Source of the DNA: Naegleria gruberi
Taxonomy: Eukaryota
NCBI GenBank assembly: GCA_000004985.1
Contig: GG738923.1
Length of the DNA: 64,000 bases
Reading direction: 5' to 3' (one strand)
Translations under genes and position numbers: made by a program
Part shown: piece by piece, positions 59,620 through 64,000 of the stretch
Layout: every line of letters begins with the position of its first letter
Position numbering within the stretch: the first letter of the stretch is position 1
The notes under the pieces: model-generated
What the model saw: only the letters and a program-made list of their open reading frames with translations
What the model was told of the DNA's origin: nothing
Database searches by the model: none

Positions 59620-59620
59620 T

Positions 59621-59779
59621 GATATCACTCATATTATCACATCATCATCGAGAATTACACCAGAGATTGCCAAACTTGTTTCAGAAAATCCACAAGTCAA
59701 TGTAGTTTCTTCTGAGTGGATCTGGCATTCAATCAACACAAGTACTTTAATCGATTGGAGACTCTACCAAATTAAGTAA
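59621..59779 (+). CDS. 3' terminal fragment of a + strand protein-coding gene that continues into the gap (hypothetical protein, C-terminus ...LIDWRLYQIK*)
   Basis: One frame is open from the gap edge for 52 codons (DITHIITSSSRITPEIAKLVSENPQVNVVSSEWIWHSINTSTLIDWRLYQIK) and ends at TAA 59777-59779. The other two + frames hit stops almost at once. The variant poly(A) signal ATTAAA sits at 59783-59788. An open frame of this length in AT-rich DNA is suggestive but not conclusive. Confidence 0.3.
   Translation, partial: DITHIITSSSRITPEIAKLVSENPQVNVVSSEWIWHSINTSTLIDWRLYQIK
59754..59779. repeat. Copy 1 of a 26-bp dispersed repeat ATTGgAGACTCTACCAAATtAAGTAA (here it is the last codons plus stop of the upstream gene)
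   Basis: It matches 62023-62048 at 24 of 26 positions; the two mismatches are g/t and t/c. Confidence 0.6.
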
Positions 59780-59782
59780 ATT

Positions 59783-59788
59783 ATTAAA
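59783..59788 (+). promoter_or_regulatory. Candidate polyadenylation signal (ATTAAA variant) for the upstream + strand gene
   Basis: ATTAAA hexamer four nt after the TAA stop of the partial ORF. Confidence 0.25.
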
Positions 59789-59841
59789 TATTACATTATA
59801 GAAATTCTATATTTTGGATTTTATATTCTTTTAATTGTTAT

Positions 59842-59847
59842 TTTATT
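59842..59847 (-). promoter_or_regulatory. Candidate polyadenylation signal (AATAAA on - strand) for the 59852..60322 gene
   Basis: Plus-strand TTTATT at 59842-59847 reads AATAAA on the minus strand, immediately 3' of the TAG stop at 59854-59852. Confidence 0.3.
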
Positions 59848-59851
59848 GTTT

Positions 59852-60322
59852 CTAAACTTCATGAGCTGAATATTGATTTCCTTCCATTCTAATCTTTTGG
59901 GAAAACCATGAATTCTCTAATACATAAGTAACATCAGACTCTTGAGATAATCTCTGTAAAACACTTCTCAATTCTTGTTTATATTTAATTGACATTAAAA
60001 TGAGAGCAATAGAGTGAGCAATTAAAAGCAAGGAAATACCTATTGCCAATAGAGAACCGACCAAAATTGGTTGTGAAGTATCATACTTCTTCAAGGTAGA
60101 AAAACCACTAACAGCAGCCATCAAAGCGAGAGAATTAATTGTCACGAGGGTGGAAACCGATATTGTTTGAATTGTAATTGGCCCAACATGTTTTATGGCA
60201 CACTTATTAATTTGTTCCAAGTGTGAGTCGAAGGTCTCTGGAGCGAGAATGCTTGAAAACTGGGAAGGAAATTCGCTGGTAAATTGCTTTGCAGATCTAT
60301 CGAAAGGAATGAGGGCTTGCAT
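59852..60322 (-). CDS. Hypothetical small membrane protein (~156 aa, two predicted C-terminal transmembrane helices)
   Basis: The track ORF 59852..60427 'starts' at a TTG (revcomp of caa at 60425-60427), not an ATG. The first real ATG is revcomp of 'cat' at 60320-60322, giving MQALIPFDRSAKQF...SAHEV. It is preceded by CACCAAAAAAA, the same A-run context seen at the other two gene starts. Two hydrophobic stretches (ITIQTISVSTLVTINSLALMAAVSGF and ILVGSLLAIGISLLLIAHSIALILMSI) look like TM helices. The stop is TAG. I do not recognise the family. Confidence 0.5.
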   Translation of the reverse strand: MQALIPFDRSAKQFTSEFPSQFSSILAPETFDSHLEQINKCAIKHVGPITIQTISVSTLVTINSLALMAAVSGFSTLKKYDTSQPILVGSLLAIGISLLLIAHSIALILMSIKYKQELRSVLQRLSQESDVTYVLENSWFSQKIRMEGNQYSAHEV

Positions 60323-60587
60323 TTTTTTTGGTGAATTATTGCAATGTTTAATTGGAAGCCAATTCACTCCTGATGATTGGAAAGCTGAGTTGAACAATTC
60401 TACATGGCAATTAACATAAACTGCCAATTAAATACTTAATTAATAAAATTGAATTAAATATGTACTTAAAGTGGAAACCATTACACAGGTATTGGATGCT
60501 GCAAGAAGAAAGGGTTTTTCCACATGAAATAGAGTGTTTCATTAGTATTCATAATTAAAGACATGATTGCAATATTCACATAACAAA

Positions 60588-61769
60588 TCATTCAAACTGA
60601 AAATAGCAATCAGTGAGTATTGATTGATTTCTAAGATAAGTAGCTAACTTGGGATAAATGACTGCTGAAAATGTTTTGTAAAAAACAACTGTACTTGAAT
60701 GTGCAGTAATTTGATAATTGTTTCCAGGAATTCCATCAAATTCTTTTGAAGCATCCACCACAAATCTCATATTATGACTATTGCTTATCGCATAAAATAA
60801 GCCATTGAATTCAATAAAGAATATATCCTTAATATATCTAATCTTTGCATTGTCTGAATTGGATTCAGAAAATTTTGGATAACAGCTCAAAAACTGTTTC
60901 AAATTCTTATATTCCAGCATTGCACTTCCATATAACATGTAATTCTCATAAGTTGGAGTAGTGTTTGCAAATCTCACTACCGAGCAATCGTATCCTCCAA
61001 AAGCTTCAGAAATTTTCATTTCATAATCCACAGAAAAATGTGCGGTACCTTCAGTATGTGGCATCTGATTACTTCCATTATCTCCACAAAACATTACAGT
61101 ATCATCTTCAAATATTACAAAAAATTGAAAGCTTCCACATTCAATTTTCTTAATTTTCTTTTCACAACAAAACTGGCTTACATGCCAACCCATTACCGTG
61201 TGAACAGAATGCACCCAATCCTGACCTGAAATTCTAATATCACAGTAATCCAAAACGATTATTGTAAAGGAATAACATGATGCAATATGTGTAATTTGAT
61301 GTCTGTATCCATTTACGGTCGGAGGAGTGTAAAGGAGAGTAAATTTCTCCGTACCATCCTCATTCATACAATGACGATTACCTCCAAAACAATCATAGGC
61401 CGTACTGCCACTTCCATAGAGAAATGTATTATTCATCTCATCACGAACCAAATAAAGTGTTGATCCCTCCGAAAATGTCGAAACATCTTCAATCAATAAT
61501 TTTCCATTTGTTGTAGTGTCGAGAAGATAAGGAACTTGAATTGGTATGTTACTACTGCTGCTACTACTATCAAAACCATCTTTAAAAATATAAACCTGAC
61601 CACTCTCCGATAGGACATGTACACTTGTCTGATTGATTACAACTTTTTTAATTCTCTCAAAATTGGGAATGTTAATGGTTTTGCAAGTGTTCGTATTTAC
61701 AATATGAAAGGGTTCTTGGTGATTGGTTGATGATCTATCGTTGGCGTGATCGTGGTAGATTTTGAGCAT
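60588..61769 (-). CDS. Intronless 393-aa protein with divergent RCC1-like (regulator of chromosome condensation-type) beta-propeller repeats (hypothetical)
   Basis: A 1182-nt uninterrupted ORF starts at a true ATG (revcomp of cat 61767-61769) preceded by 11 consecutive A's on the coding strand, and ends at TGA (60590-60588). The translation shows tandem blades of roughly 50-60 aa, such as TSVHVLSESGQVYIFKDG, STLYLVRDEMNNTFLYGSGSTAYDCFGGN, ITHIASCYSFTIIVLD..IRISGQD and KKIECGSFQFFVIFEDDTVMFCGDNGSNQ. These fit the RCC1 pattern [I/V]xxGxxH[ST]xxL(x)DGxVYxWGxNxxGQLG only loosely, and several consensus H/G positions are missing. The shadow ORFs on the + strand (60965..61153, 61038..61229) are embedded and discounted. 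Confidence 0.7.
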   Translation of the reverse strand: MLKIYHDHANDRSSTNHQEPFHIVNTNTCKTINIPNFERIKKVVINQTSVHVLSESGQVYIFKDGFDSSSSSSNIPIQVPYLLDTTTNGKLLIEDVSTFSEGSTLYLVRDEMNNTFLYGSGSTAYDCFGGNRHCMNEDGTEKFTLLYTPPTVNGYRHQITHIASCYSFTIIVLDYCDIRISGQDWVHSVHTVMGWHVSQFCCEKKIKKIECGSFQFFVIFEDDTVMFCGDNGSNQMPHTEGTAHFSVDYEMKISEAFGGYDCSVVRFANTTPTYENYMLYGSAMLEYKNLKQFLSCYPKFSESNSDNAKIRYIKDIFFIEFNGLFYAISNSHNMRFVVDASKEFDGIPGNNYQITAHSSTVVFYKTFSAVIYPKLATYLRNQSILTDCYFQFE

Positions 61770-62125
61770 TTTTTTTTTTTGATAATTTTTGTTTTTGAGT
61801 TGACTGTGAACTTGATTACAAAAATCTCAATTTCTTAAAGGAACAATATTATGTATTTCATAATAAGAATATCAAAGCTCATAAGATTCTCCATAATTGT
61901 CAAAAAAATAACTGACAAATAAAGAAATACTATCAACACTTGATAAATTCATTAAAGTGAGGAAGATAAGCGTCGCTGTCTAGGGACCCTTAAACAAATG
62001 GGGTTTTGATATTCTCATGCTAATTGTAGACTCTACCAAATCAAGTAATTTGATATTTTATAAATTTCCTTTTAAAGCAATTCTACAAATTCTCCAAAAT
62101 CAAAAACAACAACTCTCAAAAAAAA
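61770..62125. promoter_or_regulatory. Divergent (bidirectional) intergenic promoter region between the - strand 393-aa gene and the + strand 62126 gene
   Basis: A 356-bp AT-rich spacer is flanked by two outward-facing ATG starts. It contains an 11-nt T/A homopolymer abutting the 61769 start, an A-run directly before the 62126 ATG, a GC-rich island at 61961-61990 (ggaagataagcgtcgctgtctagggaccct) with a GATA-type motif AGATAAG, and copy 2 of the 26-bp repeat. Confidence 0.45.
62023..62048. repeat. Copy 2 of the 26-bp repeat ATTGtAGACTCTACCAAATcAAGTAA (intergenic, about 78 bp upstream of the 62126 ATG)
   Basis: It matches 59754-59779 at 24 of 26 positions. In copy 2 the same RLYQIK* frame is closed by a TGA only 12 codons upstream, so here it is not the end of an intact CDS. 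Confidence 0.6.
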
Positions 62126-62375
62126 ATGTTAAAAGATAAATGCATTGAAGTGATGGAACAAGTGTATGGTAAATTCAGTGGAGCACACTACAAACCCAAA
62201 CCATTGAAATCTGCAACACAAACTCGATACTTGTGGACTGATGCGTTTGCAGTTTGCAATTTCCTTTCGTTGCATGTGGAAAGTGGTCAAGATTCGTATT
62301 TGGAACAAGCTAAGGCACTTATTGAAGAGGTGCATCAAGTTCTTGGAAAGGATCGTTCATTGCAACATTATTTGG
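62126..62375 (+). CDS. Exon 1 of a hypothetical protein gene (MLKDKCIEVMEQVYGKF...DRSLQHYLG), donor G|GTAAGC
   Basis: ATG at 62126-62128 is preceded by CTCAAAAAAAA. The ORF has coding-like composition. A canonical GTAAG 5' splice site begins at 62376 and leaves a phase-1 exon end. The unspliced alternative is the 147-aa ORF 62126..62569 from the track. 'RYLWTDAFAV' faintly recalls the W-T-R-D-S-A region of (alpha/alpha)6-barrel glycoside hydrolases, but this is weak and unverified. Confidence 0.45.
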
Positions 62376-63201
62376 GTAAGCACATGCAGTTTCTAATAAC
62401 TAATCTAATAAATCGACGAAAGGAAAATCCAATGCTGAACATCCCCTATTGGGAGGTTTACGAATTGGCAAGGAAGCCGATGAAGATGACGAAGATGGCG
62501 ATGGTCAATGTTATAGGCGAAAAAAAACTGCCTGACAAACCATGCAAAAAAAACTGTTCGCATAATTGAGCTATGCGAAAAATATCTTTGGATATACCGA
62601 TCCTTAGTTATAATCAATCAACAAGAACTTGGAAAAATATTTCAAAAATATTGACAACAAGTAAGTCCATCACGACTCTGTTGATTCTTGGAGTAGTTTC
62701 ACATCTATTAACTCCAAGAATTTCACCACATCATCTCATCATCATTTAAATAGTAGTATTAATAGTAATTTTTGGAATTTAATTGTTCATCATGATTTGG
62801 AAATAATTTTATTATTTGGAAAAATTCAAGTTGGTACATCATCATCGGAACAACTACCAACCATCATCATTGTTATTTATCATCATTATAATAGTAATAT
62901 TTGTGGAAATAAATCTGATAATAATAATATTTTAGTGAAATTCAATATTTTCACTAAAATCATCATCACTGCCCGATTTATATGATAATTTGGAAAACTT
63001 TCAATCTAGTATTGTTCAGCATAGTCGATTCCATCAGGTAAAATTACTTCCGAATATTTTCCTATTGGTTATCATGATGATAGGTTCATGTATATTTTCA
63101 ACATGTACATATACCATATCTCAACATGTACTTCACCAACTTGAAAAATGTCTTTCGTCACTACTATTCAAATACATAATAAACAATATATTTATTATCA
63201 G
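62376..63201 (+). other. Putative intron (GTAAGC...TTATCAG), 826 nt
   Basis: The GTAAG donor at 62376 and the acceptor tttattatcag| at 63200-63201 are phase-compatible (phase 1). The interior is AT-rich with CAT/ATC microsatellite-like tracts, a 12-bp hairpin and only short low-complexity ORFs (62797..62985, 62990..63310). However, 62404-62535 has coding-like composition, and there are additional candidate splice sites, so the true structure may include an extra exon. Confidence 0.35.
62929..62960. repeat. Perfect inverted repeat / hairpin (12-bp stem ATTTTAGTGAAA / TTTCACTAAAAT, 8-nt loop TTCAATAT)
   Basis: Read directly: 62929-62940 attttagtgaaa, loop 62941-62948, 62949-62960 tttcactaaaat. 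The right arm is the exact reverse complement of the left arm. Confidence 0.6.
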
Positions 63202-63932
63202 ATTTTTATCATTTTGTGTTTTTGCCAACTTCGATTCATGCCTATCTCACCAAATGGATGTTTGCCCTCAACAGAACGTCACTAATCACTCGAGATGTCA
63301 AATACAATGAATGGGCAATTGAAATGGCCCAATCCATGCATAACAAGTTTATCAATCATAGTTCTTCACGTGGATTGAGGATGTTCTGGAAGATTTCTAT
63401 TGATGGTTCGAGACCAGTTGTGAGATCTGAAGGAAATTTGGATCCTTATGATGGTTATGTTACTTATAGACTTTTACAATTGGTCAACCAGCAATTAAAA
63501 GAAGGAAAGAATGTGGATGGAAGTGTTTTGAATAGAGAAATTGAAGAAATGAAGGGAATGGTGATGGGAAAGTATTTAATGTATCAGAGTTCAGATCCTC
63601 TGGATTTGGGAGAAACTCTTTGGTTGACCAGTTGGTTTCCTGATGAAGATTGGGCGAATCATATGAGAAAAGTTGCCATTTCTAATATAGAAGAGATATT
63701 CGAAAGCACGATTAAGAGTACAAGAAGAAGATTAGGTTTCAGAGACTTTGGTGTTTCGATTGGATTGCAAACTATTCCAGAAAATGAACAAGATGGAGAA
63801 ACTAGACGAATTGTTGAGAATATTCACTCCCTATGGAAAGATCATCTATTCGAAAGAGATCATGACATAACTCCGGTCATGTACTGTTCATCTCTTTTAC
63901 CTGGCGTCTTCAATCCCAACTTTCTTTATTAG
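63202..63932 (+). CDS. Exon 2 (terminal) of the same hypothetical protein gene (...DFYHFVFLPTSIHAYLTKWMFALNRT...VFNPNFLY*)
   Basis: The track ORF 63216..63932 starts at GTG, not ATG. The frame is open back to a TAA at 63177-63179. The first in-frame ATG (63258) lacks the A-run context of the other three starts. The phase-1 acceptor CAG at 63201 joins it in frame to exon 1. The stop is TAG 63930-63932, followed at once by AATAAATAAA. If the ORF is independent instead, its CDS would be 63258..63932. Confidence 0.5.
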
Positions 63933-63934
63933 AA

Positions 63935-63944
63935 AATAAATAAA
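63935..63944 (+). promoter_or_regulatory. Tandem AATAAA polyadenylation signals downstream of the 63932 stop
   Basis: The sequence tagAAAATAAATAAAttttta contains AATAAA at 63935-63940 and again at 63939-63944, two to twelve nt after the stop codon. Confidence 0.45.
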
Positions 63945-64000
63945 TTTTTAAACAACCATCAATTATTAAACAATATATTATTGTAAAAATTACAAATGCA

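What the first reader, a model, noticed from the sequence alone, without database searches (positions are those of the whole stretch)
59754..62048. 26-bp near-identical repeat: the coding 3' end of one gene recurs in the promoter of another
ATTGGAGACTCTACCAAATTAAGTAA (59754-59779) and ATTGTAGACTCTACCAAATCAAGTAA (62023-62048) are identical at 24 of 26 positions, which cannot be chance in 4.4 kb. In copy 1 the segment encodes ...W-R-L-Y-Q-I-K-stop of the upstream ORF. Copy 2 lies in the divergent promoter about 78 bp upstream of the 62126 start, and its reading frame is closed just upstream. Three explanations fit. It could be a relic of a duplicated paralogue 3' end. It could be the terminus of a dispersed repetitive element or MITE, one copy of which happens to close an ORF. 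Or it could be a shared cis element such as a 3'-processing signal or a protein-binding site. Similarity fades quickly outside the 26-mer, and the long gap prevents looking for the element's other end.
Basis: seen in the sequence. Interest (0 to 1): 0.55.

Follow-up and report, generated by a model that had tools for sequence, protein, structure and literature searches.

The report
26-bp duplication scar flanking insertion
In the amoeba Naegleria gruberi, the last 26 bases of a DNA-ligase gene were copied once, 2.3 kb away, so the two copies bracket a block of two genes (one of them found only in this species); this is most likely an ordinary footprint of the break-and-repair event that put the block there, not a mobile-element end or a regulatory signal.

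Summary
Copy 1 (59754-59779) and copy 2 (62023-62048) match at 24/26, where about 1e-4 such pairs are expected by chance. Neither flank shows further homology. The window is Naegleria gruberi, and only 59620-64000 is sequence.

Copy 1 is the genuine, ancestral end of an ATP-dependent DNA ligase (C-terminal BRCT domain). Two Naegleria-like orthologues stop at the same residue (DWRLYQIK*/DWSLHEIQ*/DYRFYELK*) but match the 26-mer at only 16-17/26 at the DNA level. So copy 2 was copied from copy 1 within the N. gruberi lineage. Both substitutions fell in the non-coding copy 2.

The repeats abut a 2,243-bp block holding an Erf4-like and an RCC1-like gene. The RCC1-like gene has homologues only in N. 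gruberi. The block is absent beside the ligase and beside the 62126-gene orthologue in every relative I could reach.

Best reading: a mutational scar, either a target-site-type duplication made when the block was inserted or templated filler at a rearrangement junction.

The MITE-terminus and shared cis-element ideas are not supported. A genome-wide copy count could not be run because N. gruberi DNA was not retrievable. Interest is low.

In passing: a 732-bp insertion in gene 62126, absent from a 94-98% identical relative, and a conserved non-coding block that lies on opposite sides of that gene in different species.

The parts
59620..59779 (+). 3' end (last 52 codons plus TAA) of an ATP-dependent DNA ligase gene: the second C-terminal BRCT domain. 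The rest of the gene lies in the N run.
   Evidence: Pfam LIG3_BRCT 1.3e-7 and BRCT_2 to profile position 85/86. 100% match to residues 864-915 of P0126, 'ATP dependent DNA ligase [Naegleria gruberi]'.
59754..59779 (+). Copy 1 of the 26-mer: the last 8 codons (partial D, then W R L Y Q I K) plus the stop codon of the ligase. This is the ancestral copy.
   Evidence: Orthologues end at the same residue.
59780..62022 (.). 2,243-bp block bracketed by the two copies. It holds two complete minus-strand genes with their own upstream regions and has no terminal inverted repeats.
   Evidence: The block is absent next to the ligase in L004, L005 and L006, and absent next to the 62126-gene orthologue in L001, L002 and L003.
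59852..60322 (-). Erf4/GOLGA7-like gene, 156 aa, no intron. The family match is weak and below the Pfam cut-off.
   Evidence: ORF. Pfam Erf4 E=1.2e-4. The exact sequence is on record as an N. gruberi predicted protein, P0131.
60588..61769 (-). RCC1-like-repeat gene, 393 aa, no intron. It belongs to a small family seen only in N. gruberi.
   Evidence: Pfam WD40_RLD/RCC1_2, weak. Homologues found only in N. gruberi: P0124 99%, P0122 86%, P0123 59%.
62023..62048 (+). Copy 2 of the 26-mer: non-coding, in the divergent intergenic region. It lies 254 nt upstream of the RCC1-like ATG and 78 nt upstream of the 62126 ATG. It is the derived copy and carries both substitutions (G5>T, T20>C).
62126..63932 (+). 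Conserved gene of unknown function; some distant homologues are annotated as six-hairpin glycosidase or alpha-1,2-mannosidase. Exons by homology: 62126-62375, 62423-62509, 63202-63932.
   Evidence: N-terminus MLKDKCIEVMEQVYG matches N. lovaniensis MLKKCIEVMENVYG.
62076..62100 (+). AAGCAATTCTAC...AAATTC: the only part of this gene's upstream region that resembles the N. lovaniensis/L002 upstream block, and only marginally. It lies downstream of copy 2.
   Evidence: p about 0.02-0.04.

Best explanation
The 26-mer pair is a structural-mutation scar. In the N. gruberi lineage, a 2.24-kb piece of DNA carrying the Erf4-like and RCC1-like genes came to lie immediately after the stop codon of the DNA-ligase gene. 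The event duplicated the last 26 bp of the ligase coding sequence. The most likely route is fill-in of a staggered double-strand break, which gives a long target-site-type duplication. The left copy keeps the ligase reading frame and stop intact. The right copy is left stranded as non-coding DNA in front of the next gene (62126), where it has since picked up two substitutions. Shown: the repeat is real and sharply bounded; copy 1 is ancestral coding sequence; copy 2 is a recent, lineage-specific derivative; the bracketed block is not at this position in any relative examined. Inferred: that the block was inserted (rather than the surroundings being rearranged around it), and the staggered-break mechanism. 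I put the broader claim, a non-functional by-product of a rearrangement or insertion, at about 0.8. The specific target-site-duplication version is at about 0.45-0.5.
For: (1) Real, sharply bounded direct repeats that abut both ends of one segment. (2) Copy 1 is ancestral. The BRCT_2 profile match runs to residue 49 of 52. Two orthologous ligases stop at the same position with similar residues. (3) Copy 2 is young and copied from N. gruberi's own gene: it matches copy 1 at 24/26, while the orthologous 3' ends match at 16-17/26. At both differing sites copy 1 shares the state of L004 (TGG, ATT), so both changes fell in the unconstrained copy. (4) The block is lineage-specific here. The ligase is followed by a tRNA gene in L004 and by a ubiquitin-like gene in L005. 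The 62126-gene orthologue is preceded by an LTV1-like gene in L001 and L002 and by a phosphatase in Willaertia. tblastn finds no Erf4-like or RCC1-like gene in any of those loci. (5) The RCC1-like gene has detectable homologues only in N. gruberi, with an 86% paralogue on another scaffold. That is what a recent duplicative insertion would leave, and its divergence is of the same order as 2/26. (6) The same locus shows another recent insertion: 732 bp in gene 62126, absent from a 94-98% identical relative.
Against: No 'empty site' has been seen. No relative close enough covers the junction: L007 starts at 62315, and N. gruberi is too distant from N. lovaniensis and N. fowleri for fine synteny (PMC9928731). 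In the distant relatives the ligase and the 62126 gene are not neighbours, so an earlier rearrangement must also be assumed. Twenty-six bp is long for a target-site duplication. The block has no transposon hallmarks: no inverted termini, no transposase, no poly(A) tail. The repeat ends exactly at the stop codon, which needs either coincidence or selection against insertions that would truncate the ligase. Whether the Erf4-like and RCC1-like genes moved as one unit is unknown, because the paralogous loci could not be fetched.
Confidence: 0.48

Rival explanations
1. Templated 'filler' at an end-joining junction. The ligase and the block were already neighbours. A break upstream of the RCC1-like gene was joined to the upstream region of gene 62126, and the repair polymerase copied 26 nt from a template 2.27 kb away on the same strand into the junction. 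This is the kind of event described for polymerase-theta end joining and for MMBIR template switching.
For: The geometry is identical to the best explanation and needs only one event. The copy is short, sharply bounded, on the same strand and from a nearby template. The position coincides with where upstream similarity to other Naegleria stops. Templated insertions at repair junctions are well documented (PMC7165422, PMC8421209). MAFFT aligns the last 12 nt of copy 2 plus its right flank to the N. lovaniensis/L002 block (25/34 columns; p about 0.002-0.004). If real, this would be the pre-existing microhomology that ended the copying at the stop codon.
Against: There is no microhomology next to the template. 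The left flanks differ at all 5 adjacent positions, and the first base on the right is a mismatch. Without the 26-mer, the similarity of copy 2's right flank to the N. lovaniensis block is not significant (p about 0.09). Copy 2 alone against that promoter is unremarkable (12% tail). I did not check whether Naegleria has a polymerase theta. A template ending exactly at a stop codon is an unexplained coincidence unless the microhomology is real.
Confidence: 0.22
2. Last remnant of a larger duplication. A longer segment containing the ligase 3' part was once duplicated here, and all but its final 26 bp was later deleted or overwritten.
For: Copy 2 keeps the exact register through the stop codon. 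The assembly holds the ligase-Erf4-RCC1 trio twice, on the 326,815-bp and 99,287-bp scaffolds.
Against: There is no residual similarity to the ligase in the 134 nt upstream of copy 2. This needs two events with a deletion edge that leaves a clean 26-mer. The second trio is 99-100% identical at protein level and is better read as an allelic or redundant scaffold.
Confidence: 0.12
3. Functional shared cis element: a protein-binding site or 3'-end signal kept at both places by selection.
For: Copy 2 sits about 80-100 nt upstream of a start codon in a divergent promoter. The G>T change in copy 2 perfects an 11-nt palindrome, GTAGA-C-TCTAC. The N. lovaniensis promoter has CAAATTAAGCAA at a similar distance from its ATG (0.6% tail for copy 1).
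Against: Coding constraint fully accounts for copy 1. The orthologous ligase ends differ at 9-10 of 26 bases. L002 and Willaertia promoters lack the motif, and copy 2 itself does not match the N. lovaniensis promoter above background. No similar sequence sits at the other three gene ends or starts in the window, or anywhere in 95 kb of related loci (best 18/26). No Rfam or tRNA hit. Perfecting a quasi-palindrome is a known mutational bias and needs no selection.
Confidence: 0.07
4. The 26-mer is the terminus of a dispersed repeat or MITE.
For: Only the general pattern of a short repeat recurring at unrelated sites. The assembly seems to break near this region in the other scaffold set.
Against: Copy 1 is orthologous coding sequence. 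There are no inverted termini. The 26-mer has zero matches in the metagenome, viral and prokaryote collections. N. gruberi repeat content is low, at 5.1%.
Confidence: 0.03

Closest known systems
Target-site duplications flanking inserted DNA (transposon, retrocopy or captured-fragment insertions at staggered breaks)
   Same: Two direct copies of a sequence that was single-copy before the event abut both ends of one inserted-looking segment. One copy preserves the pre-existing function (the ligase stop) and the other decays.
   Different: Twenty-six bp is longer than the 2-10 bp of most DNA transposons and sits at the upper range of LINE-mediated events. The segment carries two ordinary-looking cellular genes with their own upstream regions. 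It has no transposase, no inverted termini and no poly(A) tail. No empty site has been observed.
Templated (filler) insertions at polymerase-theta / MMBIR repair junctions
   Same: A short, sharply bounded copy of a nearby same-strand sequence, placed at what looks like a rearrangement junction.
   Different: The diagnostic microhomology next to the template is not seen. The template is 2.27 kb away, farther than I recall as typical for such events (from my own knowledge, not checked here). I did not establish that the enzyme is present in Naegleria.
MITE or dispersed-repeat termini
   Same: A short repeat at two unrelated-looking positions.
   Different: One copy is conserved coding sequence. 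There are no inverted repeats and no further copies in any accessible data.

Membership tests
Target-site duplication of an insertion | Direct repeats immediately abutting both ends of one segment, with no homology beyond them | tested here: met
   Copies at 59754-59779 and 62023-62048. Flank alignments are at chance level.
Target-site duplication of an insertion | The repeat derives from a sequence that was already at the target (one copy ancestral) | tested here: met
   Copy 1 is the conserved ligase C-terminus. Copy 2 is closer to it (24/26) than any orthologue is (16-17/26).
Target-site duplication of an insertion | An empty site (target without insert, single copy of the repeat) exists in a relative or haplotype | tested here: inconclusive
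   Distant relatives lack the block beside the ligase, but they also lack the ligase-62126 adjacency. The only close relative contig, L007, does not reach the junction. Both assembly copies carry ligase-Erf4-RCC1.
Target-site duplication of an insertion | A donor or sister copy of the inserted segment exists elsewhere | tested here: inconclusive
   The RCC1-like gene has paralogues at 86% and 59% on other scaffolds. Their DNA and neighbours could not be fetched.
Templated insertion at an end-joining junction | The insert is identical to a nearby sequence | tested here: met
   24/26, same strand, 2,269 bp away.
Templated insertion at an end-joining junction | Microhomology between break ends and the bases flanking the template | tested here: not met
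   Left flanks ...TAATCG and ...ATGCTA share none of the 5 adjacent bases. On the right, ATT versus TTT mismatch at +1. Later mutation could have erased it.
MITE / dispersed repeat terminus | Many copies across the genome | not testable with these tools
   N. gruberi DNA is not retrievable. There were 0 hits in the metagenome, viral and prokaryote collections and none at 19/26 or better in 95 kb of related loci.
MITE / dispersed repeat terminus | Terminal inverted repeats and an element-derived sequence at the site | tested here: not met
   The block termini match at 7/20. Copy 1 is orthologous coding sequence.
Shared cis-regulatory or 3'-processing motif | Conservation at orthologous positions or recurrence at other genes | tested here: not met
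   Orthologous promoters: copy 2 scores in the 12% tail against N. lovaniensis, and no 26-mer-like sequence was seen in L002 or Willaertia. Orthologous ligase ends match at 16-17/26. There is no recurrence in the window.
Structured RNA (tRNA-like or Rfam family) | A match to a covariance model or tRNA fold | tested here: not met
   ARAGORN found 0 genes. No Rfam hit overlaps either copy even at E<=10.
Pseudogene / paralogue relic | Residual homology to the parent gene beyond the repeat | tested here: not met
   The upstream 60-134 nt score no better than shuffles. The frame is closed by a TGA 13 codons before the stop.

The most novel reading that the evidence does not exclude
The 2.24-kb Erf4-like + RCC1-like block is a self-contained mobile gene cassette of an undescribed kind. 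It spreads within N. gruberi (paralogues on at least two other scaffolds) and makes unusually long target-site duplications of about 26 bp. The duplication then lets an insertion land at the very end of a gene, and on top of the neighbour's upstream region, without destroying either.
Probability: 0.07. Interest if true: 0.55.

Novelty: new member of a known kind. Interest (0 to 1): 0.15.

Why it matters
On the best reading it matters little. It is one more example of the short duplications that double-strand-break repair or insertion leaves behind, here dated to the N. gruberi lineage and conveniently polarised by a conserved coding sequence. It has two modest uses. It marks a precise breakpoint for reconstructing how a small RCC1-like gene family, found so far only in N. 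gruberi, was placed in a compact protist genome. It also shows that a 26-bp duplication can let an insertion land at a gene's stop codon without harming the gene. If the block turned out to be mobile, this would be a lead to an unrecognised kind of gene-carrying element in Heterolobosea.

Tried and rejected
1. Fetching N. gruberi DNA for this locus, its allelic scaffold and the paralogous RCC1-like loci.

2. A word-indexed protein search with the 52-aa BRCT fragment found nothing. The exhaustive HMMER search rescued it.

3. Scans for the 26-mer in the metagenome, viral and prokaryote collections gave 0 hits. A metagenome scan for more Naegleria ligase 3' ends gave none.

4. tRNA-like or ncRNA reading. 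By eye, the reverse complement resembles a tRNA D-arm, but ARAGORN and Rfam find nothing. Rejected.

5. Extended homology beyond the 26-mer. The repeat finder stretched it to 44 nt at 77%, but gapped alignments against shuffles and against real background are not significant. Rejected.

6. Copy 2 as a conserved promoter element shared with N. lovaniensis. Marginal for copy 1 (0.6% tail, six tests), not for copy 2, and absent in L002. Not accepted; kept only as possible microhomology in the filler rival.

7. Retroposition of a bicistronic transcript. The block has no poly(A) tail at its 3' end and includes about 250 bp of upstream region. Disfavoured.

8. Viral origin of the block genes. No relatives in viral contigs and no sequence relatives in the PDB.

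9. P0124 (99% RCC1-like copy) as evidence of dispersal. Rejected: it sits with an identical Erf4-like gene and the ligase on one 99-kb scaffold, so it is an allelic or redundant copy of this same locus.
Full report
WHAT IS IN THE WINDOW. Positions 1-59619 are N, so only 59620-64000 (4,381 bases, 32.6% G+C) is sequence. A protein search with the last exon of the right-hand gene returns a 100% identical 'predicted protein [Naegleria gruberi]', so the window is N. gruberi nuclear DNA. From left to right it holds four genes:
- the last 52 codons of a gene ending at 59779 (+);
- a 156-aa Erf4/GOLGA7-like ORF at 59852-60322 (-);
- a 393-aa RCC1-like-repeat ORF at 60588-61769 (-);
- a conserved gene of unknown function starting at 62126 (+).

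THE OBSERVATION. No shuffle of the window gives a match. The analytic expectation for such a pair in 4.4 kb of this composition is about 1e-4. The reading of copy 1 as ...DWRLYQIK-stop is correct, as are the closed frame upstream of copy 2 (TGA at 62007-62009) and the 78-nt distance to the ATG at 62126. The repeat is sharply bounded. The five bases to the left all differ. Gapped local alignments of 60-150 nt of either flank are no better than dinucleotide shuffles or real-sequence background.

WHICH COPY IS THE ORIGINAL. The 52-residue fragment matches BRCT profiles up to three residues from its end. An exhaustive HMMER search finds the full N. gruberi protein (P0126, 915 aa, named ATP-dependent DNA ligase by its source) and two relatives from Naegleria-like contigs. 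All three proteins end at the same alignment column: DWRLYQIK*, DWSLHEIQ* and DYRFYELK*. Copy 1 is therefore old, constrained coding sequence, and no mobile element supplied the end of this ORF. At the DNA level the orthologous ends match the 26-mer at only 16-17 positions, against 24 for copy 2. So copy 2 was copied from N. gruberi's own gene after this lineage separated from those relatives. At both sites where the copies differ, copy 1 has the state seen in L004 (TGG, ATT), so both substitutions happened in the non-coding copy. One of them (G>T) turns GGAGA-C-TCTAC into the perfect palindrome GTAGA-C-TCTAC. That is a pattern template-switch mutation at quasi-palindromes can produce without selection (established knowledge).

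WHAT LIES BETWEEN THE COPIES. The copies abut a 2,243-bp block with two complete, intron-less, minus-strand genes and their upstream regions. The RCC1-like protein has detectable homologues only in N. gruberi: 99%, 86% and 59% identical. The 99% copy lies on a 99,287-bp scaffold together with an Erf4-like protein of identical sequence and with the ligase model itself. I read that scaffold as an allelic or redundant version of this same locus, not as a dispersed copy. The 86% and 59% paralogues are on two other scaffolds. The block has no inverted termini (7/20 matches), no transposase-like domain, no poly(A) tail at the 3' end of its genes and no viral relatives.

COMPARISON WITH RELATIVES.
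- The ligase gene is followed by a tRNA gene and an unrelated minus-strand gene in L004, and by a ubiquitin-like gene in L005.
- The orthologue of gene 62126 is preceded by an LTV1-like gene in N. lovaniensis (L001) and in Naegleria sp. L002. In Willaertia (L003) it is preceded by a serine/threonine phosphatase.
- tblastn with the Erf4-like and RCC1-like proteins finds nothing in any of these loci.

So the arrangement ligase | block | gene 62126 is peculiar to the N. gruberi lineage. These relatives are distant: a pangenome study left N. gruberi out of its synteny analysis for that reason (PMC9928731). They cannot show the state immediately before the event.

MECHANISM. Two direct copies of a pre-existing sequence bracketing a lineage-specific segment is the anatomy of a target-site duplication. 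On that reading, a staggered break across the last 26 bp of the ligase gene was filled in on both sides of a captured 2.24-kb fragment. The left copy then preserves the ligase ORF and stop, and the right copy is spare DNA. This explains why the right edge of the repeat cannot lie left of the stop codon. It does not explain why it lies exactly on it.

The main rival is a templated filler. Here the ligase and the block were already adjacent, and a rearrangement junction upstream of the RCC1-like gene was patched with 26 nt copied from 2.27 kb away, as in polymerase-theta end joining or MMBIR (PMC7165422, PMC8421209). In favour of this rival, MAFFT aligns the last 12 nt of copy 2 plus its right flank with the N. 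lovaniensis/L002 upstream block. If that alignment is real, it would be microhomology that stopped the copying at the stop codon. Against it, the alignment is not significant without the 26-mer (p about 0.09), and there is no microhomology beside the template.

Both readings make the repeat a by-product of repair, and I put that general conclusion at about 0.8. A trimmed relic of a larger duplication is possible but needs more steps and leaves no trace.

The cis-element reading is weak. Coding constraint explains copy 1, the orthologous promoters and ligase ends do not keep the motif, and nothing similar occurs at the other gene ends in the window or in 95 kb of related loci. No tRNA or Rfam family matches.

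WHAT COULD NOT BE DONE. No N. gruberi DNA could be fetched, and the 26-mer is absent from the metagenome, viral and prokaryote collections. The MITE reading is therefore rejected on the orthology of copy 1 and the lack of element structure, not on a genome-wide count.

SIDE FINDINGS.
(a) An environmental contig (L007, ENA ERZ929261) is 94-98% identical to the window over 62315-62509 and 63242-63967, but lacks 62510-63241. There it reads DGDGQYFHYLTKW, as N. lovaniensis does. The 732 bp in the window is therefore a recent insertion that replaced 8 nt of coding sequence. It starts with GT and contains an AG at 63200-63201, so it may be spliced as a new intron at the cost of a changed peptide. 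The public model P0001 instead skips the conserved exon 62423-62509. The insertion has no inverted termini and no clean target-site duplication.
(b) A roughly 41-nt non-coding block sits about 60-100 nt upstream of the 62126-gene orthologue in N. lovaniensis and L002, which share a 40-nt stretch with one mismatch (39/40). Its best N. gruberi match (19/20 over the core; alignment score 44 against a background maximum of 29) lies 26-66 nt downstream of the gene, at the very end of the window. Rfam finds nothing there. I cannot explain this.

VERDICT. This is a real, non-chance 26-bp duplication of the end of a DNA-ligase gene. It is best explained as an ordinary structural-mutation scar bracketing a lineage-specific two-gene block. 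It is a new instance of a known kind of event, of low general interest, with a small chance that the block is an unrecognised mobile cassette.

Noticed in passing
window 62510-63241: A 732-bp stretch inside gene 62126 is absent from a 94-98% identical environmental contig (L007), which reads DGDGQYFHYLTKW uninterrupted, as N. lovaniensis does. In the window the insertion replaces 8 nt (ACTTTCAC). It begins with GT and has an AG at 63200-63201, so it may act as a newly created intron. It has no terminal inverted repeats and no clean target-site duplication, but it does have internal repeats spaced about 140-175 bp apart.
   Followed up: partly
window 62423-62509: The public gene model P0001 (317 aa) starts at the second ATG and skips a conserved exon encoding (G)KSNAEHPLLGGLRIGKEADEDDEDGDGQ (compare N. 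lovaniensis ASDDHPLLGGLRIGKKYNEDHEDGDGQ). The homology-based model is exons 62126-62375, 62423-62509 and 63202-63932.
   Followed up: yes
window 63958-63998; L001 9905-9944; L002 9564-9602: A conserved non-coding block (core TATTGTAAAAATTCCAAATG, identical in N. lovaniensis and L002) lies upstream of the 62126-gene orthologue in those species. Its best N. gruberi copy (19/20; score 44 versus background maximum 29) lies just downstream of the gene's stop, at the window edge. There is no other copy in about 95 kb of loci and no Rfam match. Its role, and the reason for the changed position, are unknown.
   Followed up: partly
window 1-59619: 93% of the window is a single run of N. The ligase gene body lies inside it. 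The ligase protein model (P0126) is N-terminally short (915 aa versus 1,223 aa in the L004 orthologue) and is recorded on a different, 99,287-bp scaffold.
   Followed up: partly
window 59620-61769 versus N. gruberi 99,287-bp scaffold and 7,259-bp contig (not fetched): The assembly holds this locus twice. Ligase, an identical Erf4-like protein and a 99% RCC1-like protein are together on the 99-kb scaffold. A 217/218-identical partial copy of gene 62126 sits on a 7.3-kb contig that begins just after the 732-bp insertion site. This suggests unmerged haplotypes that break in the region of copy 2 or the insertion.
   Followed up: partly
window 60588-61769: The RCC1-like-repeat protein has no detectable homologue outside N. 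gruberi among 5.8 billion proteins. It forms a small family there (86% and 59% paralogues on other scaffolds). It has no PDB sequence relative and no viral relative.
   Followed up: partly
window 62026-62036 (copy 2) versus 59757-59767 (copy 1): The G>T substitution in copy 2 converts the imperfect palindrome GGAGA-C-TCTAC into a perfect one, GTAGA-C-TCTAC. This could be quasi-palindrome template-switch mutation, or a hint of a dimeric binding site. It is a post hoc observation.
   Followed up: no
L004 4444-4517: In the Naegleria-like metagenome contig L004, a tRNA gene (Rfam 63.5 bits) lies about 115 nt downstream of the ligase stop codon, where N. gruberi has the inserted block.
   Followed up: no
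window 60323-60331, 61770-61781, 62117-62125: All three complete genes have a run of 8-12 A immediately before the ATG on their own strand. This accounts for the top inverted repeat (I1) in the repeat scan and looks like a general feature of start-codon context here.
   Followed up: no
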